Source: Coriobacteriales bacterium
GTDB lineage: Bacteria > Actinomycetota > Coriobacteriia > Coriobacteriales > UBA8131
DNA length: 62,448 bases
Direction of reading: 5' to 3'
Assembly (NCBI GenBank): GCA_031268525.1
Contig: JAIRXA010000042.1
Location: 1-62,448 of the forward strand
This document shows, in pieces, positions 5,044 through 52,296 of the stretch. The notes under the pieces are model-generated. The model was given only the letters and a program-made list of their open reading frames with translations. It had not been told where the DNA came from and did no database searches. A program made the translations under genes and the position numbers. Each line of letters starts with the position of its first letter. The first letter of the stretch is position 1.

Positions 5044-5247
5044 CTAGACCTTGCGGACGTTGCTCGCCTGGAGCTTGCCATTCTGGCCGGTGGTGATATC
5101 AAACTCCACCAACGCGTCCTCTTCGAGGGTCTTGAACCCATCGGACTGGATTTCCGAATAGTGGACGAACAAGTCGTCCCCGTCATCCCGAGAGATGAAC
5201 CCATAGCCTTTATCCGGATTGAACCACTTGACTTTCCCTTCAGCCAT
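5044..5247 (-). CDS. Cold-shock protein (CspA family)
   Basis: [33 protein letters not shown] carries the RNP1/RNP2 motifs. Start trimmed to ATG 5245-5247 (67 aa); the ORF-track extension is unlikely. Confidence 0.93.
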
Positions 5248-5460
5248 GTCTTGCCTTTCTTTCTGCCCACTGGGCAAACCACAAACGACACAGGTTTCAA
5301 CCAAGAAACCTGGGCCGCGAACCAATGAGCTCGTTTGAGCTCTTGAGAGATTTTACCATATTGTTACCTGATCGCTCCGTAAATCTGTATTTTTCTGATT
5401 CTTCTGCGGATTTTCCCTGGATTTTTGCCCTCAAAACAGCGGACGAAACACCGGGTGGGG

Positions 5461-7959: not shown

Positions 7960-7962
7960 CCT

Positions 7963-8742
7963 CTAGACAATCGTCTTTCCGACCGCGGCGGCTATGACGC
8001 GCAGTTCATCCATCAACGACGCGAAGGCTGCGAGCGTCAACTGTTGAGGTCCGTCAGATTTCGCCTGCTGTGGATTGGGGTGCACCTCGATCATCAACGA
8101 ATCGCAACCAGCGGCGATGGCGGCCTTGGCCAGCGAGGGAATCAGGTCAGCCTGACCGGCAGGGTGAGAAACATCCACACAGATCGGGAGCAGGGATCGT
8201 TTGTGAATGACGGGCACCGCCGAGATATCGAGGGTAAAGCGTGTCGCCGTCTCAAAGGTGCGCAGACCGCGCTCGCAGAGCATAATGTTGGGATTGCCAC
8301 CCTGGGTGAGGTATTCGGCCGCGGAGAGCCATTCGTCGATAGTCGCCGCCATACCCCGCTTGAAGAGGACGGGAGCGTGGTTTTCGGCCGTTGCCGAACC
8401 CACGCGCTTGAGCAGATCGAAGTTGGCCATGTTGCGCGTGCCGATCTGCAATGCGTCTACATAAGACATGACCAGATCGACATGCGCCGTATCCATGACC
8501 TCGGTCAGGGTTCCCAAGCCATGCTTCTTGCCCGTATCGGCCATCAGCTTCAGGCCTTCTTCGCCCAGACCCTGGAAGGAGTACGGGCTGGTTCGTGGCT
8601 TGAAGGCACCGCCGCGTATCCAATGCAGCCCCAGGTCGGCCAGGGCAGCACCAACCAGCTCCATCTGCTCGGCATCTTCGATGGAGCAGGGGCCAGCAAG
8701 CATCGTGATCGTGCCGGACTGGTGATAGGGAACATAGCTCAT
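7963..8742 (-). CDS. aroF: 3-deoxy-7-phosphoheptulonate (DAHP) synthase, short class I-beta type
   Basis: 259 aa with GPCSIE, RGGAFKPRTSPYSFQG, LCERG and DVSH motifs. Start overlaps the chorismate mutase stop. Confidence 0.88.
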   Translation of the reverse strand: MSYVPYHQSGTITMLAGPCSIEDAEQMELVGAALADLGLHWIRGGAFKPRTSPYSFQGLGEEGLKLMADTGKKHGLGTLTEVMDTAHVDLVMSYVDALQIGTRNMANFDLLKRVGSATAENHAPVLFKRGMAATIDEWLSAAEYLTQGGNPNIMLCERGLRTFETATRFTLDISAVPVIHKRSLLPICVDVSHPAGQADLIPSLAKAAIAAGCDSLMIEVHPNPQQAKSDGPQQLTLAAFASLMDELRVIAAAVGKTIV

Positions 8743-9014
8743 CCGTGCATCTCCTTTGCGACGCGCAGGATGGTCTCCCAGATCGTGCGTAGATCGTCCG
8801 AGTACAAAGGCCCACGGTTGTAATGCGCCACCCGCTCAAAGATTTCCTCCTCGCGCTTCGGGTCATAGAGCGCAAGCTGGGCATTGGGTTTAAGCGCCCG
8901 AATCGCCAGTGACTTCTCGGCGCGTTGATTCAAGAGGGCAACGATCTGACTGTCGATGGTGTCGATATCGGCTCTCAGACTTTCGATGTCTTTTAGGGCT
9001 TGTTCCTCAGCCAT
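8739..9014 (-). CDS. Chorismate mutase (AroQ-type, stand-alone)
   Basis: LRADIDTIDSQIVALLNQRAEKSLAIRALK...YDPKREEEIFERV is a typical AroQ helical pattern. Start set to ATG 9012-9014; the longer ORF-track start at 9143 is possible but unsupported. Confidence 0.8.
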   Translation of the reverse strand: MAEEQALKDIESLRADIDTIDSQIVALLNQRAEKSLAIRALKPNAQLALYDPKREEEIFERVAHYNRGPLYSDDLRTIWETILRVAKEMHG

Positions 9015-9156
9015 ACAACAACCCTTCTCTTGGTACCTTTGGTTCATTTGTGCGGATTCGTAGTCTAGCATAGAGTGAAAGGGTGCAGGAGGAATTGTGA
9101 GCAGCACGTCGGGAACCAGACATGAGCGCTCTTTATCGATCACTGAATAATTACTC

Positions 9157-9414
9157 TTAAAAGACCACGGATTTGTACGTAAAGTTCAGGCAGTTACTGC
9201 AAGGAAGTACGGCGGATATCTCATTAGGGTCGGTGGTCGCACGTCCGTTGCCGCACGCGACATAGCTGCCCCAAGTCTGGTAGTAGGTCCTCGCCACATA
9301 ATTGGCGCAATGTTCACGATCATGCGGTGCTTCGGCTTTTCCTGATGCCGACGATCCGCCACTCACTTGCTCAAGCTCTTTGTCCGACAACGCCTTTTCG
9401 TCCAATTCGCTCAT
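9157..9414 (-). CDS. Double-glycine-leader peptide precursor (class II bacteriocin / signalling-peptide-like), 85 aa
   Basis: The leader MSELDEKALSDKELEQVSGG matches the LSxxELxxIxGG double-glycine consensus. The 65-aa core has 4 Cys. A strong RBS (aaggaga) lies 6 nt upstream of ATG 9412-9414. Confidence 0.7.
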   Translation of the reverse strand: MSELDEKALSDKELEQVSGGSSASGKAEAPHDREHCANYVARTYYQTWGSYVACGNGRATTDPNEISAVLPCSNCLNFTYKSVVF

Positions 9415-9761
9415 GGTGTTCTCCTTCGATCAGCGACTCCCTGATTCTCATGCGATGAAAACTTGCCCAGAGCCGCAAGACTTCTATTGATTTCCACTAT
9501 ACTACATTATGTTAACGGCCTGCTCATTACCAATATTCATAAACAATACCTTTGTCGCCTTAGTATGCCTTGAGCAGAGATCTCTGAAGAGGCAGCTCTG
9601 CTCAAAAATCAAAACGGTCTGTAGTAAAATGACACGGCAAGGACTTAAGATAAACTGAGATTTTCTCGCCGCTTTGATCAGATGAGAGGCATTGCCATGA
9701 AACTCAATGCGGAAATTATCGCGCAGAATCTTCAGAAGGCGATGGATGTTCAAATTATAGG

Positions 9762-9773
9762 CCCCCCCCCCCC
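9762..9773. repeat. Poly-C homopolymer (12 nt) at the frame junction of the PucR-type regulator gene
   Basis: 9761-9780 reads gccccccccccccagaaact. The upstream frame (ATG 9697) and the downstream frame (ORF 9845-11245) meet exactly here, one nucleotide out of register. Confidence 0.95.
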
Positions 9774-9844
9774 AGAAACTTTCACTGAGGCATACCTGCT
9801 TTCTCGAAAAGGATACCGTACTGGAATCGGATTCTGTCTACCTG

Positions 9845-11245
9845 ATGGAACATGCTGACCCGGGCAGAGTTCCGTTACTGCCAGAGGGTTGCCTTCTGGT
9901 CGTTATCGACGAAGATCCGACCAATCTGGGGAAATGGCGCTATTCCAGCACGGTCAATAATCTGACGCTCCTGGTGGTAAAGAACCGGATTAAGATTACT
10001 GCAGTCTGCAACCACATCCTCAAAATCTTTGAACACTTCACAACATGGGAGAATCAACTCAGAGAAATTATTCAAGGTTCTGGAAACATAAAGGAAATGA
10101 TTACCATAAGCGTACCGAATTTCGAAAATCCAATTGGCGTGGTAGATCAAAAAATGCAGGTCATAACTTCTGTGGATATCGTGGATTCGCAGTTTGCTGA
10201 AACATCAATGAAATACTCTGTCAATGACAGGCCGACCTTTCCCAAAGACATACCGGCGGAGCTGATCATGAAAAATCACATCAAATATAAGGCAAAGCGT
10301 GTTCCCTATTTTTATGTGGATAAATCGATTTACTCTGTCAATCTGTTTTCTGACGATGACTATATCGGCTCGGTAAGTCTCGCAGCCAAATTTCGACCAT
10401 TGACACATGCCGACATGGCTCTATTTGAATTTTTGGCAGAATTTTTACGTGAAGGATTATTGAAGCTCACGCCCGTTAAGGTTCATGAGAAAACCTGCCT
10501 GAGAAGTGTATTCATCAGTCTGTTGAAGAAAGCTGAAGTCAATGGAAAAGCCATCAAGGAGGCTTATCGGGGCCTCGATGACAAGCATCAATTTACAATC
10601 CTATGTCTTTATAACTCAACAATACATAGAGACATTCCCCCTGAATATATATGCGAACAGATAGAGCTCAGAATAGACGGATCATTGGCGACCTGCGTAG
10701 ATTCGGAGATTGTTATCCTTCTGAGTCTTGATGCACGGCAAAGCAATCTCGAGGATGCAATTCGCGGAATTTCCAGTTTTCTCGCAGAGTTCGATTTCCT
10801 GGCGGGCGTCAGCAACATATTCACCGAATTGGAAGACGTGTATTTCAATTATCTCCAGGCAAAATATGCGTTAGCAATAGGTTCTGGGACCAAGGCGGGT
10901 CAATCCTATTATCTTTTTCAAGAATTTGCCCTGTTATATCTTCTCAATAAAATGCTGGAAGACTTACCGCCCAGGTTCTTCGTGCCACCAAAGTTGATGC
11001 TCCTGAGCAGCTCTGGCAATACTTCAGGTGCAGAATACTGGAAAACACTGCATGTTTATCTGAAGAATTCCATGAACGTAACGCTTACTGCCAATGAACT
11101 TGGAATTACTCGAGGCTCCCTGTACAAACGCCTGGAAAAGATACATAAAATTCTGGGCATCGATCTGTACAACGCGAAATACCGATTGTATGTCGAAATC
11201 TGCATGAGTCTCATCGAATGGAACATCGAAAGCAAACAGGGGTAG
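9845..11245 (+). CDS. PucR/CdaR-family transcriptional regulator; as assembled it lacks its probable first ~49 codons, which lie in another frame from ATG 9697
   Basis: The C-terminal HTH (MNVTLTANELGITRGSLYKRLEKIHKILGIDL) is typical of the PucR C-terminal domain. There is no RBS before ATG 9845, but gagagg lies 8 nt before ATG 9697. This frame is open back to 9761. Confidence 0.8.
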   Translation: MEHADPGRVPLLPEGCLLVVIDEDPTNLGKWRYSSTVNNLTLLVVKNRIKITAVCNHILKIFEHFTTWENQLREIIQGSGNIKEMITISVPNFENPIGVVDQKMQVITSVDIVDSQFAETSMKYSVNDRPTFPKDIPAELIMKNHIKYKAKRVPYFYVDKSIYSVNLFSDDDYIGSVSLAAKFRPLTHADMALFEFLAEFLREGLLKLTPVKVHEKTCLRSVFISLLKKAEVNGKAIKEAYRGLDDKHQFTILCLYNSTIHRDIPPEYICEQIELRIDGSLATCVDSEIVILLSLDARQSNLEDAIRGISSFLAEFDFLAGVSNIFTELEDVYFNYLQAKYALAIGSGTKAGQSYYLFQEFALLYLLNKMLEDLPPRFFVPPKLMLLSSSGNTSGAEYWKTLHVYLKNSMNVTLTANELGITRGSLYKRLEKIHKILGIDLYNAKYRLYVEICMSLIEWNIESKQG

Positions 11246-11296
11246 AAAGGTTCTGAGACGGCATTATCGCTACAGATGCCTATCGTTTCATCGATA

Positions 11297-11348
11297 GAAA
11301 AATACCCAATAATGCCATGGCGCATTTGCAACCATGGCATTATTGGGT
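11297..11348 (-). terminator. Intrinsic terminator after the MDR dehydrogenase gene
   Basis: A 17-bp perfect stem, acccaataatgccatgg (11304-11320) / ccatggcattattgggt (11332-11348), is followed on the minus strand by attttt. Confidence 0.7.
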
Positions 11349-11369
11349 GTCGATAAGGCGAGGGGTACC

Positions 11370-12395
11370 TCAATAGACGATGGTGACCTTCTGAGATTCG
11401 GCAGGATTATTGGCCATCTTGAAAGCCTCAAGTATGTCATCCTGTTTGAACTGGTGTGATATAAGTGGAGCAAGATCGTATTTGTTTGATTTCATCATTT
11501 CAAGAACGTCAGGGGCAACATCTTCATAGCGACCATCGCCACATCCGCAGATACAGAGATCGTTATAGCAAACCTTTATGAGATCGAGTGTCTTTGGATG
11601 ATGGTGAACTCCTACGATCGATAAAACTGCACATCTTGATGCAAGTTCCATAAAGTAATCAACACCTACATCAACTGTCAGAGCATCTACATATAAATCT
11701 GCGCCACAGCCTTCGCCCATAAATTTCCGCTTCGTCCCAAACTCAGACTTAGCCCTTTCTGCAAGATCCTCGTTTTGAGGATTACAGACAAGGAAGCCAA
11801 AACTCTCTGCATTTTTCAGGCGATAATCAGAGATATCAACGACCATAACCCTATCGCAGCCATACCAATCCAGCATGATGGCAGAAGACATTCCAATAAT
11901 GCCTGCACCGAAAACTATGCCGGTTTTGCCCGGACCGGGATTCGTCCGTCTGGCCCCCTTTGTGCCGATGACAAAAGGTTCGAGAAGTACAGAAGAAAGG
12001 AGCGGTATATCCCTGTCGATCTTGATGGCGCTGAAATTAATCTCGAAATCTGGGATATGGACATATTCGGAAAAGCCACCGACGGTTGCTGTACGCATAT
12101 AGTCACGCTTGGCATTGCCCATATTGGGGAATACATGGTCCCCGATCTCGATATCCTTGACGTTCTTTCCAACCTCGATGACTTCACTTGTCATTTCATG
12201 CCCGAATTCAGAACCCTCCCAAATCATGTTGGCGTCGCCACCTAGATTGAAGGCAGCAAGATCGCCACCGCAAATTCCAGCTATTCTATTTTTCACAATT
12301 ACATCATTATCGCCGCATTGTGGATAAGGCAACTCCTCAATATCGATTTTCCCAATCCCTTTGTAGATTGCAGCTTTGTAGGTTTTTTGCGTCAT
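11370..12395 (-). CDS. Zinc-type medium-chain dehydrogenase/reductase (MDR family)
   Basis: GICGGDL (catalytic Cys), FGHE, a GDHV motif, and a GAGIIG Rossmann motif. No structural-zinc Cys cluster is visible. Confidence 0.85.
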   Translation of the reverse strand: MTQKTYKAAIYKGIGKIDIEELPYPQCGDNDVIVKNRIAGICGGDLAAFNLGGDANMIWEGSEFGHEMTSEVIEVGKNVKDIEIGDHVFPNMGNAKRDYMRTATVGGFSEYVHIPDFEINFSAIKIDRDIPLLSSVLLEPFVIGTKGARRTNPGPGKTGIVFGAGIIGMSSAIMLDWYGCDRVMVVDISDYRLKNAESFGFLVCNPQNEDLAERAKSEFGTKRKFMGEGCGADLYVDALTVDVGVDYFMELASRCAVLSIVGVHHHPKTLDLIKVCYNDLCICGCGDGRYEDVAPDVLEMMKSNKYDLAPLISHQFKQDDILEAFKMANNPAESQKVTIVY

Positions 12396-12438
12396 AGTCT
12401 ATTCTCCTTCATGCCTGTACCTGGAATCTGATATGTAT

Positions 12439-12498
12439 TTTGACCATCAAGCTGGCTGAAGAAATGCTCTATGGAACCAAGCCAGCTTGATGGTCAAA
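12439..12498. repeat. 19-bp perfect inverted repeat with a 22-nt loop, between the GcvT-like gene and the MDR gene
   Basis: Arms are tttgaccatcaagctggct (12439-12457) and agccagcttgatggtcaaa (12480-12498). No U-tract on either strand. Confidence 0.85.
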
Positions 12499-12525
12499 TA
12501 GTGCGTCAGTGACTGAATTGCAGAA

Positions 12526-13584
12526 TCATGCGAAAACTCTTTCGGTCAAAGTTCCTGAATATCCGTTAATGACAATGCGATCGCCGATCTTTGCCTTATC
12601 GGCATCGACAAGGGCAAAGCCGATGCTTCGTTCGGAGATGTAGCCATAGGTAAACTTTGTTACACGACCCACCTCTTCGCCACCCATCAATACCGGATGC
12701 CCCGAGCCGCCCCTGTCTTTGGGATGAATATGGACATCGTCCTCGTCTGTGATAAAGCCCAACAGAGTACGCTTTGGCCCTTCTTCTTTGATTTTCAACA
12801 AGGCTTCCTTACCGATAAAATCTTTATTCCAATCGACCCCATCAGCCAGACCAACCTCAAAGGGGTTTGCCCACTGGATATCGGCCATCAGATAGAAGCC
12901 CTTCTCCGTCGGAAGGCTTAAGGCCATAATCTGGAATTCCTGCACTTCGACAGCGCCGAAGTCCTTGCCAGTTTCAGCAAGCTTGGCTTCAATGGTTTCG
13001 CAGAACGCGGGAGAAACATAGATCTCATAGCCCACTTTCTCGCCGGTAAATCCACCCCTGTTGATTTTCACGGGGATGTCATCGATCTTGTTGTCAAGAA
13101 TCTGGAAGAATTTCTGATCATCAATATTCTTTTCAACAAGTGCATTAACCAAGTCTTTTGATTTGGGGCCCTGTACGGCATACATATCCCATTGGTCGGT
13201 GATGATTTCATAGGTAACATCATAGTCGCCCTTATGAGTATCAAGCCATCTCGTTAATTTGACAGCATACAGCGTTGAGACCCAGAATTTGTTTTCTTCG
13301 AGGCGAAATACAACCACATCATCAAGAATCTGAGCCTGCTCATTGAGCATGGTGGTGTATCTGGCACGGCTGACTTCCAAATTGGAAATGGGCTTCAGGT
13401 AAATCAAATCCAGGAAGGCGGCCGCATCCTTGCCGGTAACTTCGACCAGATGATGCGTGAAATAATACCAGCCCACGGTATTTCTTACCGCCTCATGCTC
13501 CCTACGCTTCCAATCATCGTATTTGTATACGTTTTTAAAGATTTTCATCTCATCGAATCTATAAGCGTCTTCGTTTTTAAACAT
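12526..13584 (-). CDS. Aminomethyltransferase (GcvT) family folate-binding protein
   Basis: 352 aa with GcvT-like architecture: VGWYYFTHHLVEVTGKDAAAFLD, YAVQGPKS, INRGGFTGEKVGYEIYV, and a C-terminal barrel GRVTKFTYGYISERSIGFALVD. Confidence 0.8.
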   Translation of the reverse strand: MFKNEDAYRFDEMKIFKNVYKYDDWKRREHEAVRNTVGWYYFTHHLVEVTGKDAAAFLDLIYLKPISNLEVSRARYTTMLNEQAQILDDVVVFRLEENKFWVSTLYAVKLTRWLDTHKGDYDVTYEIITDQWDMYAVQGPKSKDLVNALVEKNIDDQKFFQILDNKIDDIPVKINRGGFTGEKVGYEIYVSPAFCETIEAKLAETGKDFGAVEVQEFQIMALSLPTEKGFYLMADIQWANPFEVGLADGVDWNKDFIGKEALLKIKEEGPKRTLLGFITDEDDVHIHPKDRGGSGHPVLMGGEEVGRVTKFTYGYISERSIGFALVDADKAKIGDRIVINGYSGTLTERVFA

Positions 13585-13635
13585 GCTCGGTACACCCTTT
13601 CATCTAATAGAACTGTCTCTGAACAAGAGACAATA

Positions 13636-14961
13636 TTAGAGACAGAATTTGTCGACCTTCTTTGCGATCTTAATGCGGAACTTACCCTCGGGGACATCTT
13701 CTGTTTCTTCCCAGAGAGACCACGCGGAACCAATCAAAGTTTTGCTCATGCCATACCACATCGGAATGTAAGCATCCTTCATAAACGCCATGCCATTCTC
13801 GAATCTCTTGATATCAATGTCGTAGATGACATCGTCTTTGTTAAAGGCGACGATGTCGTACTGGTTCTTCCTGGCTTGCAGATAAACCTCTATGTAGGCG
13901 CCCAAAACACGACCGTCATTGACATCATTGGGAACGCCCAGCCAATCGCGAAGGCCCTTGACCGCATAGGCGTCAAGGAACATCATCTTTCCAACACCTC
14001 GAAACATCAACTCAAAGAGGGCGCTTACCTCTTCACGGGTGACTTCGCCTTTTTTAATCATGTCCTGAAGTGCGAACGTGACATAATCGCAGCCGAGGTT
14101 GCTTCCTGAGCTCACGTCATAGCCACCTCTGCCGCCACCTTCTCCGGCGGCGTTATACTCGGCACAGGTTCCTGTGCGATACTTGAACTCACAGTCTTCA
14201 CGAAACATCTGGAGGCCCCTATAATCGAGCTTTTCCTCCTCGGGGGTGTATTTAACGAGCTCCGGTGCAGCTAAAGGACCAAAGTTATCCCATTTTTCTC
14301 GTGGTGGCATGGGAAACTTGTCAGGGTTTTCGCCAATCATGCGACAATGTGGATCGCCACAACCTAAAGCCTCGACCATGGTCACGCGTAACTCTGGGCC
14401 GCGGTCCCTGCTGAATCTTTTCCATGAATCACCGAGCTTTTCCGTACCTGCCCAAGGAGAGGTATGGCAGATCTCTGTGCCTAAGATGTCCCAGGGGCAG
14501 GTATCCAATTCCTTTTCAAAGCGGAAAGAACCAAAGTCGTTGACGCGCCCAGCCATAAACAGACTCTCGTCACCATTATCGCCCGACATGGCCGTCGGAA
14601 AACAACCTCTCATGAAGGGAAAGACGTCCATGGTTACGGCTGTCGGTTTGCAAAAATTTCTGCCTTCAGGTTCAGGGGCGAACATTTTAATATAGAACTC
14701 ATCAGCAGTGTCACAGCAGCGGGTGACACGAGTTGCATAGTCAGGAATATAATGACGAAGTACCTCATAGAACACAGCGCCTACGCCCGCACGATGGCGA
14801 GCAATGAATACCATCGCATCATACAGAGAGATAAGTTTCTCCCAGGGAGTCTTTATAGCTGGATTATCGGGCAGATGACCTTTACCTATGTCGTTGGGTA
14901 AACGGGTGTCGATTGTATTACTCATAATGTCTAACAACTCCTTCCAGAATTTATCATTCAT
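13636..14961 (-). CDS. Hypothetical Cys-rich protein, 441 aa, no family recognised
   Basis: Long ORF 51 nt upstream of the GcvT-like gene on the same strand. It has about 19 Cys in clusters (TRCCDT, LGCGDPHCR, EDCEFKYRTGTCAEY) and a GEGGGRGGY tract. No TM helix or signal peptide is evident. Confidence 0.7.
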   Translation of the reverse strand: MNDKFWKELLDIMSNTIDTRLPNDIGKGHLPDNPAIKTPWEKLISLYDAMVFIARHRAGVGAVFYEVLRHYIPDYATRVTRCCDTADEFYIKMFAPEPEGRNFCKPTAVTMDVFPFMRGCFPTAMSGDNGDESLFMAGRVNDFGSFRFEKELDTCPWDILGTEICHTSPWAGTEKLGDSWKRFSRDRGPELRVTMVEALGCGDPHCRMIGENPDKFPMPPREKWDNFGPLAAPELVKYTPEEEKLDYRGLQMFREDCEFKYRTGTCAEYNAAGEGGGRGGYDVSSGSNLGCDYVTFALQDMIKKGEVTREEVSALFELMFRGVGKMMFLDAYAVKGLRDWLGVPNDVNDGRVLGAYIEVYLQARKNQYDIVAFNKDDVIYDIDIKRFENGMAFMKDAYIPMWYGMSKTLIGSAWSLWEETEDVPEGKFRIKIAKKVDKFCL

Positions 14962-15143
14962 TCAATGTGCTCTATCAGAACGTTGCTGCCTCTCTCCCTT
15001 CTCAAACCTATTCGTTTATTCAACCTGTTCCATAAGCATTTCTCTTTTTGCCTCCTCTCCTTCTGCTTATCGTGTTGATTCGAATTCAAGTTGATAGGAT
15101 TTTTTGATCCCACTCGCGGAAAGATTCACAACCTATGTTTTGT

Positions 15144-16568
15144 CTAGGCCTGCGGCTTTGATTTCACCAGGAACTGCCCCATGACCAAAGCTATGACAGC
15201 TATGGCAGTGGCAATGACGAGCGCTACGTTCATTCCCTGCGTAATGCCAAAACTGGCCATAATCAGTGTATAGACAGCCATGCCAATGCTTGAACCGAGA
15301 TTTTGTGCTGTCTGCACCAACGAATTGGCTTGAAATCGCAATTCAGGCTTGATTTGGATTTGCGGCGCAGTCGACGAGGTGACGTTTTGTTGTGCAGAAT
15401 ACAGACCCGCAATAAACATCAACACATAGACGATCGGGAGCGGCGTTTGAGGAGATAGGATGATTATGACCGCTATGGTTACCACGATTCTCACCAGGGT
15501 ACCCACGGTGATCAAACCACGAGCGCTGCCTTGGCGCACAATCAATTTCCCCAGAAATGGACTGATAAAAATGCCCGGCACGGCATAAATGGCTGTGCTG
15601 AACGCTGCGTAGAGACCGCCACCATCTAAAACACTGATAATATATGCAGGCATGAAAAATACCAGAGCATTGGCTGAAGTATTGATGAAGAAATTATAGA
15701 GGGCAAGAGCCACCGTATTACGATCTTTCAGCATTGCCAGGGGGATAAAGGCCTGTTCACGCTTTTTGGAAAAATCTACCAGCAGCATCACAAAACCAAC
15801 CATCGCCACCAAAATAAGTGCATGGGACAGAGGGCTTCCGAATGGAACGTAGGTAGTACCGAGCGATAATGTCATGACCAGTCCGAGCAATAACAAAGTG
15901 AGAGAAAATGCGCCAAGGGCATCAAATCCAACTTTCCCCTTAAGATGGGGAGCTGCCTGAGCCCGAGTGACCTTGACGCCGATCATGATGAAAAGTACTG
16001 CCAGCAGAAGCAGTGGCACACTGATGCGATACGCTACTCGCCAACCCAGAGTGTCGGTTATAAGTCCAATGATCGTTGGCCCAATAAACATACCTATGCT
16101 GGTCACGGTGCCAATAAAGCCAAGGTAGATTGCTGCCTGGCGTGCATTGTACATATCTCGGATCATAGAATACGCCACCACGAAAATGGAAGCGCTTACT
16201 GCTCCATAAAAGAAGTTGACAGCAATAATCACAAACATGTTTGGCGCAAAGGAAATAGCTGTAAAGATTGCAGCGCCCAGTGTTAATGAGCCGGCAAGAA
16301 GAGGGCGCTTCAGTGCTGGATTACCGGCACCCAGAAAACCGTAGATCGGCATGATGCAGATCGACATTGCACCACCAACGCTCGATACCAATGGGTAAAT
16401 ATCCATACCACCAATATCGAGTGCCGCCATGGGTAATAAGGTAAATGTGCCGGTTGAGATGAAGCGCGTAATCAAAGCTGCAAGGTATATACCAATAAGA
16501 GTGAGCCTCTTCTTCGAAGGGGAAGCCATCGCAAAGAGGTTAACCAGCTCTCTTTTCTGTGCATCCAT
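15144..16568 (-). CDS. MFS transporter (14-TM, DHA2-like), paralog 1
   Basis: 474 aa, hydrophobic throughout, with a GxLxDxxGWR-like motif (GLITDTLGWRVAY). Collinear with the two genes upstream. Confidence 0.85.
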   Translation of the reverse strand: MDAQKRELVNLFAMASPSKKRLTLIGIYLAALITRFISTGTFTLLPMAALDIGGMDIYPLVSSVGGAMSICIMPIYGFLGAGNPALKRPLLAGSLTLGAAIFTAISFAPNMFVIIAVNFFYGAVSASIFVVAYSMIRDMYNARQAAIYLGFIGTVTSIGMFIGPTIIGLITDTLGWRVAYRISVPLLLLAVLFIMIGVKVTRAQAAPHLKGKVGFDALGAFSLTLLLLGLVMTLSLGTTYVPFGSPLSHALILVAMVGFVMLLVDFSKKREQAFIPLAMLKDRNTVALALYNFFINTSANALVFFMPAYIISVLDGGGLYAAFSTAIYAVPGIFISPFLGKLIVRQGSARGLITVGTLVRIVVTIAVIIILSPQTPLPIVYVLMFIAGLYSAQQNVTSSTAPQIQIKPELRFQANSLVQTAQNLGSSIGMAVYTLIMASFGITQGMNVALVIATAIAVIALVMGQFLVKSKPQA

Positions 16569-16657
16569 GATATGCGCGCTTCTTTCCTGATAGATACGTT
16601 GCCACGATGGTTCAAGGTCCGGACAATTCTTTGATTGCCCATGTAGGGCTTCTTATC

Positions 16658-16692
16658 TTTCCCAGAGGCGCGTCAACGGCGCCTCTGGGAAA
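16658..16692 (-). other. 14-bp GC-rich hairpin just after the MFS paralog 2 stop
   Basis: tttcccagaggcgc / gcgcctctgggaaa with a 7-nt loop. The trailing U-tract is weak, so terminator function is uncertain. Confidence 0.5.
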
Positions 16693-16706
16693 TCCAGTCG
16701 TACCAA

Positions 16707-18182
16707 TCAGTGTTCTGTCTCTTTCGCAAGTGTTTCCGCCCTTGCTTTTATGTCTTCCTGCTCCTTCTCCTCGTTCCAATCAGGTTTCTTCATGATTATT
16801 CCGCAGATCATGAGTGCCACAGCTCCGGCAAGGGCCAGATAGAGCCCATAGGTCATGCCCTGTTCTTGCCCAAATGCTGTAATAATTGCGGTATACACAG
16901 GAATACTCAATACGCCACCGTAGGTCTGTCCGAGCTGGATGAGCGCATTGGATTGTTGCCGAACCTTAGGCTCGATCATGACCTGAGGTGCCGCGGTTGT
17001 AACAATGTTAGCCGCTGAAGCGTAAAGACCCGCAAGGAGCATCAGAAAATATACGACATAGATATTGGCGCCGGGAACAAGGACGAAAATGAAAACAATG
17101 GTAATAGCCACTCTCCAGGCTCCACTGAACCAGATAACGATAGGTTTAACCGTACCGGATTTTGCTACCCAACGACCAAATATCGGACCGAGGAAAAGGC
17201 CAACGACTGCATAGCACGACATCGCAATGCTTGAAGCACCGGCTCCAGTGCCAAGAACATAAATCAGGAACATGGGCAGGAAGAAGGAAAGGGCCATCGA
17301 AGAGAAGGGGCTGAAGAAGTTTGCTCCAAAGAGCGCAATGGTATTTCTGTTCTTGAACGCAGAAAGGGGAACTATGGCTGCATCTCTCTTTCTCCTGATG
17401 GTAATGATCAAAACAACCAGAGAGATGGCAGCAACCGCGAAAAGCAGATTATTGGCAAGAGTGCCAAATTTTATATAGTTGCCGCCGAGAGAGAGGGCGA
17501 CTATCAGGCTGGCGAGTAAAAAGCTCAGCGAAAGCGCCCCTATGAGATCGAACTTTCCCTGCACATACGATATCAATTTTCCTTCTTCTTTGGTAATGCG
17601 AGCACCAAAGAAGACTATGATGGCAGCGATGAGGAAGATTGTCGCCTGAAATCCTGTAACAAAGCGCCAGCTCGCCAGCTCAATCAAGCCACCCGTTAAA
17701 ACCGGACCTACCAACGAACCAACCGCAAGCATGGTTGCGAGAAAGCCCAGGTAAATTCCCGCTTGCTTTTGACTGAAGCAGTCTCTGATTATGGTATAGC
17801 CAAAGGTATACAGTGCAGCTGACGCGAAGCCAATCAAGACTGACGGAATAATAAAAGCCAACATATTCGGAGCAAGCGTACGACCCAGCAAGGCTACGAC
17901 ACCCAAGAGAAAGCCCACGACAAAGCCTGTTCGCTTAAGCGTAGGAAATTTTGCCCCGAGAAAGCCAAAGAGCGGCATTGTGGCAACGCTGATAGGGCCA
18001 ATCACTGATGCGGCAAGGGAGTAGATGTCTTCTCCGCCTATATCCTGTGCCGCCATCGGCAGAAGTATTGAGTTGCCCATTGCTATTGTGATGGATCCGA
18101 ACATTCCGATATAAACGCCAATTACCGTCAGCATTTTTCGTACTTGAGTATTATTTCGATAGGGATTTACCACGTCCATCAT
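16707..18182 (-). CDS. MFS transporter, paralog 2
   Basis: Very similar along its length to paralog 3, for example ITKEEGKLISYVQGKFDLIGAL and the tail MKKPDWNEEKEQ. Start trimmed to ATG 18180-18182, preceded by ggaga and matching paralog 3's MDAVNPY start. Confidence 0.85.
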   Translation of the reverse strand: MMDVVNPYRNNTQVRKMLTVIGVYIGMFGSITIAMGNSILLPMAAQDIGGEDIYSLAASVIGPISVATMPLFGFLGAKFPTLKRTGFVVGFLLGVVALLGRTLAPNMLAFIIPSVLIGFASAALYTFGYTIIRDCFSQKQAGIYLGFLATMLAVGSLVGPVLTGGLIELASWRFVTGFQATIFLIAAIIVFFGARITKEEGKLISYVQGKFDLIGALSLSFLLASLIVALSLGGNYIKFGTLANNLLFAVAAISLVVLIITIRRKRDAAIVPLSAFKNRNTIALFGANFFSPFSSMALSFFLPMFLIYVLGTGAGASSIAMSCYAVVGLFLGPIFGRWVAKSGTVKPIVIWFSGAWRVAITIVFIFVLVPGANIYVVYFLMLLAGLYASAANIVTTAAPQVMIEPKVRQQSNALIQLGQTYGGVLSIPVYTAIITAFGQEQGMTYGLYLALAGAVALMICGIIMKKPDWNEEKEQEDIKARAETLAKETEH

Positions 18183-18306
18183 TCTGTCTCCAAACCGTTT
18201 CTCGTTTCCGCAAGGTACGAAGAATGGCTGGACAGCGAGCTGCCGCCACTCTTCGTCATATTCTGTCTTTGCCAAAGACACCAAAAAACACGCTTCTGGG
18301 AATTAA

Positions 18307-19791
18307 TCACACCGAACTGTCGTTGTCCGTCTCTTTCGCAAGTGTGGCCGCTCTTGCCTGTATCGCTGCCTGTTCCTTTTCTTCATTCCAATCGGGTTTC
18401 TTCATGAAGAAACCCAGGATCATGAGCACGATTGCGCCCGTAAGAGCTATACAGAGACCGTAGGTCATGCCTTGTTCCAGACCAAATACCCCGATGATGG
18501 CTGTGTAGGTTGCAATACCCAATACGCCACCAAAGTTCTGCGTGAGCTGAATGAGTGCATTGGATTGTTGCCGAATGCTCGGTTCAATCATAATCTGAGG
18601 CGCTGTGGCAGAAGTAATGTTGTTTGCATTGGCATACATGCCCCCCAAAAACATCAGGGCATAGATGACATAGAGATTCGCTCCGGGAACAAGTACGAAG
18701 ATGAAAGCAATGGTAATGACTACTCTCCAGGCTCCACTGAACCAGATGACGATGGGCTTTGCCGTACCAACTCTTGCTACCCAACGACCAAATATGGGAC
18801 CGAGGAAAAGACCGAGGATTGCATAGCACGAAACCGCAATGCTCGAAGCACCGGCTCCAACACCGAGAATATAAATGAGAAACATGGGCAAGAAGAAGGA
18901 GAGTGCCATTGAATCGAAGGGACCGAGAAAGTTTGCTGCAGCAAGTGCAATGGTATTTCGACTCTTAAACGCAGAACGAGGCACTATGGCGGCGTCACCT
19001 TTCTTTCTGATGACAAAGATTAAAACAATTAAAGCGATCAATGCGGCAGCCAGGAGAAGTATGTTAAAAGGAGTACCGAATTTTATGTAGTTGCCACCAA
19101 GAGATAAGGCAACTATCAGGCCGCCGAGTAAAACGATAATCGCCAAGGCTCCTGCAAGGTCGAACTTCCCCTGTACATACGATATCAGTTTCCCCTCTTC
19201 CCTGGTGATGCGAGCACCGAAGAAGACTATGATGGCAGAAATAATGAAGAGTGTTGCCTGAAACGCTGGGACAGATCGCCAGCCAAACAACTCAATGAAA
19301 CCACCCGTTAAAACCGGACCTATCAACGAACCAACTGAGAACATCGATGCTACAAGTCCCAGATAAAACCCCGCCTGTTTTTGGCTGAAGCAATCTCTGA
19401 CCATTGAGTAACCAAATGTATAGAGCGCTCCTGATTCGATGCCAAGTAAGGCCGATGGAATGATAAAGGCGACCATATTCGGAGCAATGATTCGGCATAT
19501 CAGGGCTACAGCGCCCAATAGGAAGGCCGTACAAAAACCAATGCGCTTGATGTGGGGGAATTTTGCTCCGACATAGCCAAAAAGAGGCATTGCTACCACG
19601 CTCAAAATGCCACCTATTGTCGCAGCCAATGAGTAGATTTCTTCCCCTCCTATATCCTGCGCCGCTACCGGAAGCAGTATTGAGTTACCCATGGCAATCG
19701 TAATGGCGGAGACCATACCAACATAGATGCCGACGACTGTCAGCATCTTTCGCGCTTGAGAATTCTTCTGGTAGGGATTCACTGCGTCCAT
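18307..19791 (-). CDS. MFS transporter, paralog 3
   Basis: Start set to MDAVNPYQKNSQARKMLTV, with ggaga before ATG 19789-19791. ITREEGKLISYVQGKFDLAGAL and the tail MKKPDWNEEKEQ mirror paralog 2. Confidence 0.85.
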   Translation of the reverse strand: MDAVNPYQKNSQARKMLTVVGIYVGMVSAITIAMGNSILLPVAAQDIGGEEIYSLAATIGGILSVVAMPLFGYVGAKFPHIKRIGFCTAFLLGAVALICRIIAPNMVAFIIPSALLGIESGALYTFGYSMVRDCFSQKQAGFYLGLVASMFSVGSLIGPVLTGGFIELFGWRSVPAFQATLFIISAIIVFFGARITREEGKLISYVQGKFDLAGALAIIVLLGGLIVALSLGGNYIKFGTPFNILLLAAALIALIVLIFVIRKKGDAAIVPRSAFKSRNTIALAAANFLGPFDSMALSFFLPMFLIYILGVGAGASSIAVSCYAILGLFLGPIFGRWVARVGTAKPIVIWFSGAWRVVITIAFIFVLVPGANLYVIYALMFLGGMYANANNITSATAPQIMIEPSIRQQSNALIQLTQNFGGVLGIATYTAIIGVFGLEQGMTYGLCIALTGAIVLMILGFFMKKPDWNEEKEQAAIQARAATLAKETDNDSSV

Positions 19792-20577
19792 TATTCCGTC
19801 TCCAATCCTTTCTTGCTCGTATGTGGGCATGCATTGCAGCTCTCTGTCTTTTTATTGACTGGTTTGAACAGAGCAGCGACTGGCTAACGTATGTAACTCA
19901 TCGTTTCATATTCAGCTATCAAGGTGCACCTATAAAACTTCTTGAAATACCCCTTGACTTCCATGGTTGGGTCGCTCGAAGCCCTCTTATTCATATTCCT
20001 CTCAGTGATATCTACCCTCTCAATTGTCAGGTCAATCTCTCCTGCTTCTCTGGGAAACAGGATGGTAACCATTTGAAAACCATCTGTTATTCTTATTCAA
20101 AAATGCAGCATTTGATATACGGCAAACTGTTTCCCAAAAGCCCTGAATTGGTGCACACTTTATAACCTGAGCCCGCAGATGGGCAAAGCGGTTTATGCCT
20201 TTCTACCAGCACAAATAGCTCTTGTGATGTCTCCAGGATAATCTTTGCAGCGAAACGGCTTTTACGGGGAGGTGCCTTCCTGGGCATTACTTCCCTCTTC
20301 AAGCCACTCGGTTGAGGCGATGAGGCCGATCAGTTGTGTGCGTCCCGCCACCAAGTCCATCAATACCCTCTCAATACCACGCATGCTCGAAACAGGGGCA
20401 GCGACAGGCGGGAAACAAAATGTGCACCAAAACACACAGGTAAAGCAACAGCTTGCTGTCTAGGGAAAGGCACGTATTGAGGAGATAATGGAAGTACCTT
20501 GTGGCTGGGTATTTCTCGTACCCACCCCTGAAGGAGCAGGATGAAAGGTAGATTCTTTTCGAGAGGAGAAGCATTTC

Positions 20578-21585
20578 ATGCGAGCAGCCATTTATCATGA
20601 TATACAGGATGTTTCTATTGAAGAGATACCGGATCTTCGCTGTGGAGCCAGGGACGTTCTGGTCAGGAATGTCCGGGCAGGCATCTGCGGCTCTGATGTT
20701 ACCGGCTATTTTAAGGGTGGTAAATATGCCGGAATTTATGAGGATAGACAGTTTGGCCACGAAAATGCGGGTCGTATAGTTGAAGTCGGAAAAGATGTTG
20801 AAGGATTCGGCGTTGGAGATAAGGTCTTTGTCAATCCCAATAGAGCCATTGCGCCAGGCGAGGGAGATATGCTTGGCGCTTTTTCTGAATATATTCTCGT
20901 GCCGAACGCAGAGGCCAATTACAACATATTTCTACTCCCTGAAAACATGAGTTACGATGTCGCTGTTTTGATTGAGCCTTTTTCTGTTGGCATACATGGA
21001 TATAATGTTGCAGGCGTGAAGCCAGATGACCATGTCGTCGTTTATGGGGTTGGAACGATCGGCATCAGCAGTATCTGTGGCCTCCTTGCCAAAGGCATCA
21101 AACCGGTCGCGATGGTAAGAAGCAATGCCAAAAGAGAGTTTCTTGAGCGAGCGGGAGCCATCGTGTGCAATATCAATGAAGTAGACCGGTTTGAATTTTT
21201 GAGAGAAACATTCGGAACAACACTTCATAGAAATCGCTATCCTGCAATCGATGTCGATCTTGTCATTGACGCTGCAGGCGGTCCTGAAATCGTTGCGGAT
21301 TTCCTTCAAATGTGTAAGCCGAAATCAAAGTTGTCAGTTCTTGCTGTCGTTTTTGAGCCATTTCCTGTACCGATGGCCCGTCTTATGAGTTCAGAAACGA
21401 TAATCATGGGATCCTGTGGTTTTAACGAGGAAGATGTCCTTGAGGCCATCGATAATTTGACTTCAGGCAAGACGCTGATGCCTGGGATCATTACAAGCCA
21501 CTACAAACTCGATCAGATCAATGAGGCGATCGTAATGGCACAAAACCGTGAAAAATCAATTAAAGTTCTTATTGATATGGAGTAG
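20578..21585 (+). CDS. Zinc-type medium-chain dehydrogenase/reductase (MDR family), second copy
   Basis: GICGSDV, FGHENAG, GDKVFVNP and a GVGTIG Rossmann motif. Same subfamily look as 11370-12395. Confidence 0.85.
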   Translation: MRAAIYHDIQDVSIEEIPDLRCGARDVLVRNVRAGICGSDVTGYFKGGKYAGIYEDRQFGHENAGRIVEVGKDVEGFGVGDKVFVNPNRAIAPGEGDMLGAFSEYILVPNAEANYNIFLLPENMSYDVAVLIEPFSVGIHGYNVAGVKPDDHVVVYGVGTIGISSICGLLAKGIKPVAMVRSNAKREFLERAGAIVCNINEVDRFEFLRETFGTTLHRNRYPAIDVDLVIDAAGGPEIVADFLQMCKPKSKLSVLAVVFEPFPVPMARLMSSETIIMGSCGFNEEDVLEAIDNLTSGKTLMPGIITSHYKLDQINEAIVMAQNREKSIKVLIDME

Positions 21586-21651
21586 TCTCCTTCGACACGT
21601 AAGCCATATCACCTCGGTCGTGCTGGAAGATCACTACAGAAGGGATGCCTT

Positions 21652-22173
21652 GTGCACGAAACACTACTGAATAAATATGCAATAAACCATATCGGATATT
21701 ACGTTAAAGATCTTGAGTTGGCCTGTAGAGAACATTCTGCTCTTTTCGGATCGGGTCCGTTCTTTTACCTGGGCGAACACACAATGACGAGTATCGCGAG
21801 AGGCAGGGAATATGAATATACCTCCCGAGCGGCTTTCGGACAATTTGGAGACCTTCAGATAGAGTTCATTCAGGTGATCAGCGACAACCCCAGTGCCTAT
21901 AAAGAAATGGAACGATTCGGCCTCAATCATTTTTCAATCTGGGTTGATAACGTGGATAGCGCAATTGAAGAATTCGAGAACGCGGGCTATGAAATCGCGA
22001 TGCGACTGAAATCAAGCGGAGGTGCCGAGATCATCTACTTTGATGGTGTAGAAAAATGGGGGCACTATCTGGAAGTCAGCGCTCCTGCCGAGGGTATGTA
22101 TGAGTACTTCAAGAAGGCCGCTGAAGACTGGGATGGCTCAGAACCCTATCGTAGGCTCAATATGGGTAAGTAA
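21652..22173 (+). CDS. VOC (glyoxalase/bleomycin-resistance/dioxygenase) family protein
   Basis: INHIGYYVKDLE...FGLNHFSIWVDNVD...WGHYLEV shows the paired beta-alpha-beta-beta-beta module pattern. GTG start per the ORF track. Confidence 0.75.
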   Translation: MHETLLNKYAINHIGYYVKDLELACREHSALFGSGPFFYLGEHTMTSIARGREYEYTSRAAFGQFGDLQIEFIQVISDNPSAYKEMERFGLNHFSIWVDNVDSAIEEFENAGYEIAMRLKSSGGAEIIYFDGVEKWGHYLEVSAPAEGMYEYFKKAAEDWDGSEPYRRLNMGK

Positions 22174-22226
22174 GATAGCAGAATAAAAGTATAGTATCAT
22201 CTTCTGCCTGAGGCGATCCAGTGGGC

Positions 22227-22706
22227 CTATTTGTGATAGGGCTCGCCAGCCAGTATCTTGAAGGCGCGGTAGATCTGTTCGAGCGCAACGACGCGGGCGA
22301 GCTGATGCGGCAGGGTGATGGCGCCAAAGGACATGCGCGCATCGGCACGCTTGAGCAAGGCGGAATCGAGTCCATGCGAACCGCCAATGAGGAAACGTAT
22401 CTGGGCCTGCCCCCGTATCTGTCGATCGCCGATCAAGGCGGCGATCTCCTCGCTCGTAAACGATCGCCCTGTGCGATCGAGAGCCACGAGCAACTCGCCG
22501 CCCTTCAATCGCGCGGCGATGAGCTCGCCTTCACGCTGAAGAGCCTGACGGGGATCATCGCTGTCCCAGGACCCCCGATCACTGATTTCCTCAATCCTGA
22601 CCTCGGCATAACGCACCAGACGCGTCAGATACTCCTCGCATGCTTCCACCCAGTAAGGTTCCCTGAGCTTGCCGACCGCAGTGATCGTAATACGTGTCGA
22701 GGGCAT
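22227..22706 (-). CDS. rlmH: 23S rRNA (pseudouridine1915-N3)-methyltransferase RlmH
   Basis: 159 aa, typical RlmH/SPOUT: ITITAVGKLREPYW...IGGSHGL...SFGAITLPHQLARVVALEQIYRAF. Confidence 0.92.
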   Translation of the reverse strand: MPSTRITITAVGKLREPYWVEACEEYLTRLVRYAEVRIEEISDRGSWDSDDPRQALQREGELIAARLKGGELLVALDRTGRSFTSEEIAALIGDRQIRGQAQIRFLIGGSHGLDSALLKRADARMSFGAITLPHQLARVVALEQIYRAFKILAGEPYHK

Positions 22707-26317: not shown

Positions 26318-26331
26318 CGCATCCACCTCTC

Positions 26332-48446: not shown

Positions 48447-48638
48447 CTTTTGGCTCTCCGCCACCACTTAAAATAAATCTCCGCTCTCACATAGTCGCCA
48501 AAGTCCTACGCATTCTGAAGATATCATCCGGCAAAAAAATTCGTCCTATGGACCAGAGTAAACATCCAACTATGCAGATCATATCACGCAAAATCAACAG
48601 GCCTGAAGTCGATGAGCTTCTGGCCTGCAAAAATGACG

Positions 48639-48683
48639 TGGTGCGCGATACTGGATTTGAACCAGTGGCCCCTACCGTGTCAG
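48639..48683 (-). pseudogene. Orphan 3' half of a tRNA-Val gene (att-like duplicate)
   Basis: tggtgcgcgatactggatttgaaccagtggcccctaccgtgtca aligns with the 3' 45 nt of tRNA-Val at 52297-52341 (5 differences). The sequence beyond cannot form the anticodon stem, D-arm or acceptor 5' strand. Confidence 0.8.
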
Positions 48684-50822: not shown

Positions 50823-50853
50823 TTTTTACCTCCACACTACCAGTATGACTACC

Positions 50854-52284: not shown

Positions 52285-52296
52285 TGCGAAGATACA

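What the first reader, a model, noticed from the sequence alone, without database searches (positions are those of the whole stretch)
9157..9414. Orphan double-glycine-leader peptide gene with a 4-Cys, 65-aa core and no transporter, immunity or maturase partner in view
The first 20 residues, MSELDEKALSDKELEQVSGG, fit the double-glycine leader consensus (LSxxELxxIxGG). That leader marks class II bacteriocins, some lanthipeptides and peptide pheromones, which are cleaved by C39-peptidase ABC exporters. The predicted mature peptide, SSASGKAEAPHDREHCANYVARTYYQTWGSYVACGNGRATTDPNEISAVLPCSNCLNFTYKSVVF, has four Cys (two possible disulfides) and an aromatic-rich centre. The gene has a strong RBS and sits at the island/core junction. 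No C39 ABC transporter, immunity protein or modification enzyme occurs within the window. Such peptides are, to my knowledge, poorly described in this kind of high-G+C anaerobic actinobacterium.
Basis: partly seen in the sequence, partly recalled or inferred. Interest (0 to 1): 0.65.

Follow-up and report, generated by a model that had tools for sequence, protein, structure and literature searches.

The report
Singleton double-glycine-leader secreted peptide gene
A small gene in a gut-type Coriobacteriales contig encodes an 85-residue peptide with a textbook "double-glycine" export leader, but its 65-residue cargo resembles nothing in about 15 billion known proteins and no exporter lies on the contig, so it is a credible but unverifiable orphan of an already known kind.

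Summary
The ORF is real and is as described, on the minus strand at 9157-9414. It has an AAGGAG ribosome-binding site 6 nt before the ATG. Its first 20 residues pass NCBIfam's double-glycine leader model (TIGR01847, 17.4 bits against a cutoff of 15.7), with hydrophobic residues at -4, -7 and -12.

No ABC transporter, C39 peptidase or RiPP maturase is encoded anywhere on the 62-kb contig. The gene lies at the edge of a 13.2-kb low-GC insertion between rlmH and chorismate mutase, which are adjacent in relatives.

The 65-aa core has no homolog in any collection searched: 5.8e9 protein clusters, a full HMMER scan of 1.84e9 representatives, GTDB genomes, JGI metagenomes, IMG/VR, plasmids, phages and PDB. 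The core is neutral (pI 6.7) and hydrophilic, so it does not look like a typical cationic, pore-forming class II bacteriocin.

The best reading is a genuine precursor that a peptidase-containing ABC exporter (PCAT) encoded elsewhere in the genome would cleave and export. Its function is unknown. Comparative evidence cannot go further, because the organism is represented only by this assembly.

Verdict: a new singleton member of a known kind, of moderate-to-low interest.

The parts
9157..9414 (-). 85-aa precursor peptide gene: ATG at 9414-9412, stop codon TAA at 9159-9157
   Evidence: Searches give the ORF. It has the best codon log-likelihood of the six frames and is a local GC peak. It is present as a called protein in NCBI, JGI and nr, as a singleton cluster.
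9355..9414 (-). Double-glycine leader, residues 1-20 (MSELDEKALSDKELEQVSGG). It has V(-4), L(-7), L(-12), E(-8), S(-11), and net charge -4.5.
   Evidence: TIGR01847 scores 17.4 bits against a cutoff of 15.7 on residues 7-20. The regex rarity test is, the charge is, and the recognition rule is from PMC10885120.
9160..9354 (-). Predicted 65-aa core (7.08 kDa, pI 6.66, GRAVY -0.40). Cys at precursor positions 36, 54, 72 and 75, with HxxxHC and CxxC elements. Low-confidence helix plus three-strand topology.
   Evidence: Physico-chemistry. AlphaFold2 on the full precursor and on the core alone gives the same topology at pLDDT 53-56. No homolog was found.
9421..9426 (-). Shine-Dalgarno AAGGAG, 6 nt upstream of the ATG
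   Evidence: Only 39 of 2193 ATGs in the window have an SD of 6 nt or more at a spacing of 3-12 nt.
9506..9533 (-). Promoter-like site (TTGGTA, 16 nt spacer, CATAAT) in the AT-rich 430-bp region shared with the divergent PucR-family regulator gene
   Evidence: This is a consensus match only (9 of 12 positions), not evidence of function.
9015..22226 (.). 13.2-kb low-GC (42-50%) insertion between chorismate mutase and rlmH. The peptide gene lies at its chorismate-mutase-proximal edge. The rest encodes a PucR-like regulator, two ADHs, a GcvT-like demethylase, a conserved unknown 441-aa protein, three MFS transporters and a glyoxalase.
   Evidence: GC profile. In relatives, rlmH and the chorismate mutase gene are 37-165 bp apart. 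Gene content. Related operons without the peptide occur on L064 and L065.

Best explanation
The ORF is a genuine, strain-specific gene for a double-glycine-leader precursor peptide.

Inferred mechanism: the acidic, amphipathic 20-residue leader docks through V-4, L-7 and L-12 into the C39 peptidase domain of a peptidase-containing ABC transporter (PCAT) encoded elsewhere in the genome. The leader is cut after Gly19-Gly20, and the 65-residue core, starting SSASGK, is exported.

The core is a neutral, hydrophilic, Cys4 mini-protein. It is probably a small alpha+beta fold held by disulfides or a metal. That makes a receptor-targeted antagonistic or signalling peptide more likely than a cationic pore-former.

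What is shown: the ORF, its RBS, leader-family membership, its position in an insertion, the absence of partner genes on the contig, and the absence of homologs.

What is inferred: expression, cleavage, export in trans, the fold and the biological activity.
For: - ORF and sequence.
- Strong SD at ideal spacing, found at only 1.8% of ATGs.
- TIGR01847 above its curated cutoff.
- The strict motif has only one other occurrence in 906 kb of six-frame translation, and that one is internal to a large protein.
- Hydrophobic residues at -4, -7 and -12, as required by LahT/ComA-type C39 domains (PMC10885120).
- The core length of 65 aa is within the interquartile range (34-69 aa) of GG-type class II cores (PMC12648112).
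- The coding frame is the best of six, and GC peaks over the ORF.
- The ORF fills an otherwise non-coding 830-bp gap.
- It is already called as a protein in NCBI, JGI and nr.
- GG-cleaved precursors are known in the related Eggerthella lenta (PMC4289311).
Against: - No PCAT, or any ABC ATPase, is on the 62-kb contig, and the rest of the genome cannot be examined.
- There is not one homolog, so purifying selection cannot be tested.
- The residue at -15 is Glu rather than the hydrophobic residue of the ComA motif.
- The core is neutral and hydrophilic, unlike typical class II bacteriocins.
- No immunity gene is adjacent.
- The structure models have low confidence and match no known fold.
- No expression data are available.
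Confidence: 0.55

Rival explanations
1. The gene is an orphaned or decaying passenger. It was once a GG-leader peptide gene and was carried in with, or next to, the 13-kb horizontally acquired island. It now has no cognate exporter or immunity gene, so it is non-functional or not exported in this host.
For: - It lies inside inserted DNA between rlmH and chorismate mutase, which are adjacent in relatives.
- No partner genes are on the contig.
- Its GC content (52.7%, GC3 0.59) matches neither the island (43-49%) nor the core genome (55-62%) exactly.
- It is a singleton with no homolog anywhere.
- The neighbouring PucR-like regulator gene is itself split by a poly-C frameshift.
Against: - The ORF is intact, with a perfect leader and a strong RBS.
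- Related copies of the island operon on L064 and L065 show no such peptide, so it is not demonstrably island cargo.
- By general knowledge of pneumococcal blp/cib peptides exported by ComAB/BlpAB, GG-leader genes distant from their exporters are common and functional.
Confidence: 0.2
2. It is a RiPP precursor rather than an unmodified peptide. The core, with 12 Ser/Thr and 4 Cys, would be modified by enzymes encoded elsewhere, for example a class II lanthipeptide synthetase or a radical-SAM thioether-forming enzyme, before PCAT cleavage.
For: - GG leaders of this ELxxVSGG type are shared with class II lanthipeptides and other RiPPs (PMC10885120).
- There is a weak leader-only hit to the TIGR04149 rSAM-target family, E = 0.15.
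- The core is rich in Ser/Thr and has 4 Cys.
Against: - No LanM, cyclodehydratase or RiPP-type rSAM enzyme is on the contig.
- The only radical-SAM gene (23388-25268) is the housekeeping TIGR03960/TIGR03936 pair. It is conserved next to rodA and PBP2 in relatives that lack the peptide.
- A 65-aa core is long for a lanthipeptide or sactipeptide.
- The Cys spacing (x17, x17, x2) fits no known class. It is not the nested Cx6C pairs of glycocins.
Confidence: 0.12
3. There is no secreted peptide. The ORF is either a spurious call in a promoter-rich intergenic region, or a small cytoplasmic (possibly zinc-binding) protein whose N-terminus resembles a GG leader by chance.
For: - There is no homolog and therefore no conservation evidence.
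- The codon log-likelihood is best of the six frames but still slightly negative against background.
- HxxxHC and CxxC elements could form a zinc knuckle in a cytoplasmic protein (from the sequence).
- The TIGR01847 model has only 15 positions.
Against: - A curated-cutoff leader hit, exact N-terminal placement, a strong RBS and an intergenic location together are improbable by chance.
- The leader-like segment is followed by a flexible Ser/Gly/Ala linker, as in true precursors.
Confidence: 0.13

Closest known systems
Double-glycine-leader (TIGR01847 'bacteriocin_sig') precursors exported by C39-peptidase ABC transporters: class II bacteriocins and related peptides
   Same: The leader matches the LSxxELxxVxGG consensus above the curated cutoff. 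It has hydrophobic residues at -4, -7 and -12 and is acidic and amphipathic. The core length of 65 aa is within the reported interquartile range of 34-69 aa.
   Different: No PCAT, accessory or immunity gene is nearby. The core is neutral and hydrophilic rather than cationic and amphiphilic. It has no similarity to any class IIa-d family and lacks the YGNGV box.
CtA, the roughly 90-residue GG-leader substrate of Clostridium thermocellum PCAT1
   Same: It is a comparably long GG-leader cargo of unknown function that a PCAT threads and cleaves (PMC10885120). This shows that a 65-aa core is a plausible PCAT substrate.
   Different: CtA is encoded next to its transporter. This gene is not, and there is no sequence similarity (one search found no relatives at all).
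NHLP/Nif11-type GG-cleaved precursors of Eggerthella lenta (Elen_2949, Elen_2953, Elen_2954)
   Same: They come from the same bacterial class (Coriobacteriia), are cleaved at a VAGG/VSGG-type motif, and have Cys/Ser/Thr-containing cores of 50-59 aa (PMC4289311).
   Different: Those have leaders of about 71 aa, homologous to nitrile hydratase or Nif11, and sit in clusters with secretion and modification genes. Here the leader is a short 20-aa class-II type, and the gene is solitary.
'Orphan' bacteriocin-like peptide genes of streptococci, exported in trans by ComAB/BlpAB (general knowledge, not tested here)
   Same: This is a GG-leader gene located away from the exporter that would process it.
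   Different: Those peptides are short, cationic or hydrophobic, usually paired with immunity genes, and under ComE/BlpR control. None of that is seen here.

Membership tests
Double-glycine leader peptides / PCAT substrates | N-terminal leader matching the GG-leader profile (TIGR01847) at or above the curated cutoff | tested here: met
   17.4 bits against a cutoff of 15.7, residues 7-20, E = 0.0049
Double-glycine leader peptides / PCAT substrates | Hydrophobic residues at -4, -7 and -12 (and -15 in the ComA motif) on an amphipathic helix, ending in GG, GA or GS | tested here: met
   V17 (-4), L14 (-7) and L9 (-12), then G19-G20. Position -15 is Glu, so the extended ComA motif is not fully met. 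Rule from PMC10885120; sequence.
Double-glycine leader peptides / PCAT substrates | A cognate C39-peptidase ABC exporter encoded in the cluster or genome | tested here: not met
   The whole 62-kb contig has no ABC Walker A, LSGGQ or C39 Cys motif in any frame, and Pfam scans of 30 large ORFs found none. The rest of the genome cannot be tested with these tools.
Double-glycine leader peptides / PCAT substrates | Cleavage after GG and export of the core | not testable with these tools
   Needs biochemistry or mass spectrometry.
Class II (unmodified) bacteriocins | Cationic, amphiphilic or hydrophobic membrane-active core | tested here: not met
   Core pI 6.66, charge -0.4 at pH 7, GRAVY -0.40, maximum Kyte-Doolittle (15-residue window) 0.91
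Class II (unmodified) bacteriocins | Adjacent immunity gene | tested here: not met
   There is no small membrane-protein ORF beside the gene. The CPBP/Rce1-like gene 4.2 kb away is a syntenic core gene, 71% identical and in the same position between csp and queH in relative L068, which lacks the peptide.
Class II (unmodified) bacteriocins | Core homologous to a known subclass (pediocin box YGNGV, lactococcin, and so on) | tested here: not met
   Pfam and NCBIfam hits are sub-threshold and leader-only. No PDB sequence hit.
Class II lanthipeptides / other RiPPs with GG leaders | Maturase (LanM, a RiPP-type rSAM enzyme, cyclodehydratase, glycosyltransferase) in the gene neighbourhood | tested here: not met
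   None is on the contig. The rSAM gene at 23388-25268 is TIGR03960, paired with TIGR03936, and is conserved in relatives without the peptide.
Glycocins | Two nested disulfides from paired Cx6C motifs in a helix-loop-helix | tested here: not met
   The Cys spacing is C-x17-C-x17-C-x2-C.
GG-leader peptide pheromones (ComC/BlpC type) | Short mature peptide (about 17-30 aa) with an adjacent two-component sensor | tested here: not met
   The mature part is 65 aa. There is no histidine kinase or response regulator nearby. The Pfam ComC hit is 13.1 bits against a cutoff of 20.4.

The most novel reading that the evidence does not exclude
The core founds a previously unseen family of neutral, hydrophilic, Cys4 alpha+beta mini-proteins of about 7 kDa. 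They would be stabilised by disulfides or zinc and exported through a PCAT by uncultured gut Coriobacteriales. They would act by specific receptor binding, as a toxin or a signal, rather than by membrane permeabilisation. This would extend the range of cargo that GG-leader/PCAT systems carry in anaerobic Actinomycetota.
Probability: 0.2. Interest if true: 0.5.

Novelty: new member of a known kind. Interest (0 to 1): 0.3.

Why it matters
If it is expressed and exported, this would be one of very few GG-leader peptides from Coriobacteriales. Its core is unrelated to any known bacteriocin or RiPP, so it would be a candidate narrow-spectrum antagonist or signal from an uncultured gut anaerobe. It would also be another example of a long, folded PCAT cargo.

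As it stands, it is a single sequence with no relatives and no partner genes in view. Hypervariable singleton GG-leader cores are common in genome mining: tens of thousands have been predicted. The finding adds a data point rather than a new principle.

Tried and rejected
1. **Homology searches.** None found a relative.
   - The word-indexed search of 5.8e9 clusters returned only the query.
   - The full phmmer scan of 1.84e9 representatives returned only the query.
   - The exact-sequence lookup found nothing.
   - The GTDB genome scan found nothing, and so did IMG/VR.
   - tblastn against plasmids and phages gave only chance hits at E of 3 or higher.
   - The PDB sequence search gave only chance hits.
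   - The JGI metagenome scan gave one hit, L063. It lies inside a B12-binding radical-SAM gene and is spurious.

2. **Syntenic loci.** Sixty-two chorismate-mutase loci from Coriobacteriia carry no peptide homolog. In the closest ones the space upstream of chorismate mutase is occupied by rlmH.

3. **Island origin.** The unk441-GcvT-MFS-ADH operon recurs at 75-78% nucleotide identity on L064 and L065, without the peptide. The 91-aa ORF on L065 that weakly matched the peptide is a CxxC zinc-ribbon-like protein with no GG leader.

4. **Island boundary.** I looked for a duplicated rlmH 3' end or att repeats at the boundary and found none.

5. **CPBP/Rce1-like gene as an immunity candidate.** Rejected, because it is syntenic core in L068.

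6. **The radical-SAM gene as a maturase.** Rejected, because it is the housekeeping TIGR03960.

7. **Aromatic-operon leader or attenuator upstream of chorismate mutase/DAHP synthase.** Rejected. The ORF is 85 codons long, its aromatic content is ordinary (9.4%), there is no terminator or stable structure downstream (z = +0.8), and there is no Rfam hit.

8. **Structure.** AlphaFold2 on the precursor and on the core alone gave low confidence, pLDDT 53 and 56. Foldseek against PDB returned nothing with E below 2.

9. **Strain comparison.** Not possible. Every window protein except Csp is a singleton at 90% identity.

10. **A wasted search.** The PucR homolog search used too strict an E-value cutoff and returned only the query.

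Full report
**Observation**

The window is a whole 62,448-bp contig. The collection reports the window's own proteins as coming from a longest contig of 62,448 bp.

- The ORF listing returns a minus-strand ORF at 9157..9414, ATG start, 85 aa. Its sequence is MSELDEKALSDKELEQVSGGSSASGKAEAPHDREHCANYVARTYYQTWGSYVACGNGRATTDPNEISAVLPCSNCLNFTYKSVVF.
- The minus-strand sequence upstream of the ATG reads GAAGGAGAACACC-ATG. That is an AAGGAG Shine-Dalgarno 6 nt before the start. Only 39 of 2193 ATGs in the window (1.8%) have a 6-mer SD at a usable spacing.
- The ORF occupies most of an otherwise non-coding 830-bp gap between chorismate mutase (8739-9014, minus) and a PucR-family regulator gene (plus).
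- Its frame has the best codon log-likelihood of the six: -5.2 and -4.0, against -8 to -52 for the others.
- It forms a local GC peak of 53-57% between flanks of 41-46%.
- It has been called as a protein in NCBI, JGI and nr.

**Is the leader real?**

- NCBIfam TIGR01847 ('bacteriocin_sig', a 15-position model) matches residues 7-20 at 17.4 bits. This is above the curated cutoff of 15.7.
- Other hits fall on the same 14-20 residues and are below threshold. They are cerein 7B/lactobin, the LSEI_2386 family, EntF, CTB, TIGR04149, and Pfam ComC and Lactococcin.
- A strict regular expression for LSxxELxxVxGG-type leaders occurs twice in 906 kb of six-frame translation (11,666 stop-free segments of 40 aa or more). 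One hit is this ORF. The other is internal to a large protein.
- The leader has V at -4, L at -7 and L at -12, the three hydrophobic positions seen in the LahT147-LahA cocrystal. LahT150 cannot remove leaders that lack them (PMC10885120). It also has E at -8 and S at -11.
- Position -15 is Glu, not the Phe of the ComA motif.
- The leader is acidic, with charge -4.5.
- I conclude that the double-glycine leader is a genuine feature and not chance.

**Surroundings**

The organism is a member of the Coriobacteriia. The neighbouring chorismate mutase is at most 69% identical to Coriobacteriales and Eggerthellales MAGs. Csp clusters with Coriobacteriales MAG proteins.

- In the closest loci (L001, L002, L004) the gene order is PBP2-RodA-x-rSAM(TIGR03960)-TIGR03936-RlmH-CM-DAHPS-PcrA. 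Only 37-165 bp lie between rlmH and the chorismate mutase gene.
- In the window, rlmH is at 22227-22706 and the chorismate mutase gene starts at 9014. The 13.2 kb between them is therefore an insertion.
- Its GC content is 42-50%, against 55-62% for core genes.
- It encodes a PucR/CdaR-like regulator, two Zn-ADHs, a GcvT-like THF-dependent demethylase homolog, a conserved unknown 441-aa protein, three MFS transporters and a glyoxalase. This is a catabolic island, not a bacteriocin locus.
- The peptide gene is the last gene at the chorismate-mutase-proximal edge.
- Its GC content (52.7%, GC3 0.59) is intermediate, so its source is unclear.
- Related copies of the island operon occur on JGI contigs L064 and L065, at 75-78% nucleotide identity and 49% GC. 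As far as those contigs extend, they carry no such peptide.
- No flanking direct repeats or mobility genes were found.

**Partner genes**

- No frame of the contig contains an ABC Walker A (GxxGxGK[ST]T), an LSGGQ signature or a C39 catalytic-Cys motif.
- Pfam scans of 30 large ORFs found no ABC transporter or Peptidase_C39 domain.
- The only radical-SAM gene is TIGR03960 with its TIGR03936 partner. Both are conserved in relatives that lack the peptide.
- A CPBP/Rce1-like protease lies 4.2 kb away, and this family is sometimes linked to bacteriocin immunity. Here it is a syntenic core gene, 71% identical and in the same position between csp and queH in relative L068.
- No second GG-leader ORF exists on the contig.

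**The core**

- It is 65 aa and 7080.7 Da, with pI 6.66, net charge about 0, GRAVY -0.40 and no hydrophobic stretch.
- The four Cys are spaced x17, x17 and x2. An HxxxHC element and a CxxC element could equally suggest metal binding.
- AlphaFold2 without an alignment gives the same helix-hairpin-strand-short-helix topology for the precursor and for the core alone. Confidence is low at pLDDT 53 and 56, reaching about 70-75 over precursor residues 50-75.
- Foldseek against PDB finds nothing with E below 2.
- No homolog was found in any collection.

**Interpretation**

The most likely reading (about 0.55) is a real precursor that a PCAT encoded on another contig would cleave after Gly19-Gly20 and export.

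- The length is compatible with known PCAT cargo. GG-type class II cores have an interquartile range of 34-69 aa (PMC12648112). PCAT1 has been studied with the peptide substrate CtA, which is encoded near it (PMC10885120).
- The core's neutral, hydrophilic character argues against a classical pore-forming class II bacteriocin. It favours a folded peptide that acts through a receptor, or a signal. This step is inference.

The rivals are:
- a passenger gene stranded by horizontal transfer (0.2);
- a RiPP precursor whose maturases lie elsewhere (0.12);
- a spurious or cytoplasmic small ORF with a chance leader (0.13).

No terminator or stable structure follows the gene. Transcription may therefore read through into the chorismate mutase and DAHP synthase genes. 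I found no evidence for an attenuator role.

**Comparison and novelty**

- GG-leader peptides are a known kind.
- They have been predicted in Actinomycetota at scale, with 3,801 unique class II sequences.
- GG-cleaved NHLP/Nif11 precursors are reported in Eggerthella lenta.
- This is therefore a new singleton member of a known kind with an unprecedented core. It is not a new kind of system.
- The organism has no close relative in any collection.
- Interest is 0.3.

Noticed in passing
window 9697-11245 (poly-C at 9762-9773): A run of 12 C, the only homopolymer of 8 nt or more in the window, splits a PucR/CdaR-family regulator gene. The N-terminal piece (MKLNAEIIAQNLQKAMDVQIIGPPPP...) and the 466-aa body (9845-11245) are in different frames, and a change of one C would fuse them. 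This is a possible phase-variable switch, a pseudogene or an assembly error. The gene is divergent from the peptide gene and shares its promoter region.
   Followed up: partly
window 9015-22226: A 13.2-kb low-GC catabolic island is inserted between rlmH and chorismate mutase. It encodes a GcvT-like THF-dependent demethylase homolog, a conserved family-less 441-aa partner protein, two ADHs, three tandem MFS transporters and a glyoxalase. The unk441-GcvT-MFS-ADH core recurs at 75-78% nucleotide identity on JGI contigs L064 and L065. The 441-aa protein has more than 150 relatives (40-85% identity), several of which are named from Treponema, Spirochaetales, Clostridia and Lachnospiraceae MAGs.
   Followed up: partly
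window 48636-52372: tRNA-Val(gac) at 52297-52372 (minus) has a 47-nt, 87%-identical direct repeat of its 3' part at 48636-48682. The two copies bracket a 3.66-kb low-GC segment. That segment carries an AbrB/SpoVT-like plus PIN toxin-antitoxin pair (49018-49664) and a 349-aa multi-TM protein with no family (49773-50822). It looks like the remnant of a tRNA-integrated element without an integrase.
   Followed up: partly
window 3887-4936 (+): A CPBP/Rce1-like intramembrane protease with a long Pro-rich C-terminal tail lies between csp and queH. It is conserved in the same place in relative L068 (71% identity), so it is a core gene and not a bacteriocin immunity partner.
   Followed up: yes
window 5044-9014 compared with L066-L071: In related Coriobacteriales, csp is preceded by recG-rsmD-coaD. 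In the window it is preceded by CM-DAHPS-pcrA. This indicates a rearrangement breakpoint between pcrA and csp, near 5250-5460.
   Followed up: no
window 25265-26608 (-) and 13636-14961 (-): Two sizeable ORFs (447 aa and 441 aa) have no Pfam or NCBIfam family. The 447-aa ORF lies between rodA and the TIGR03960 radical-SAM gene.
   Followed up: no
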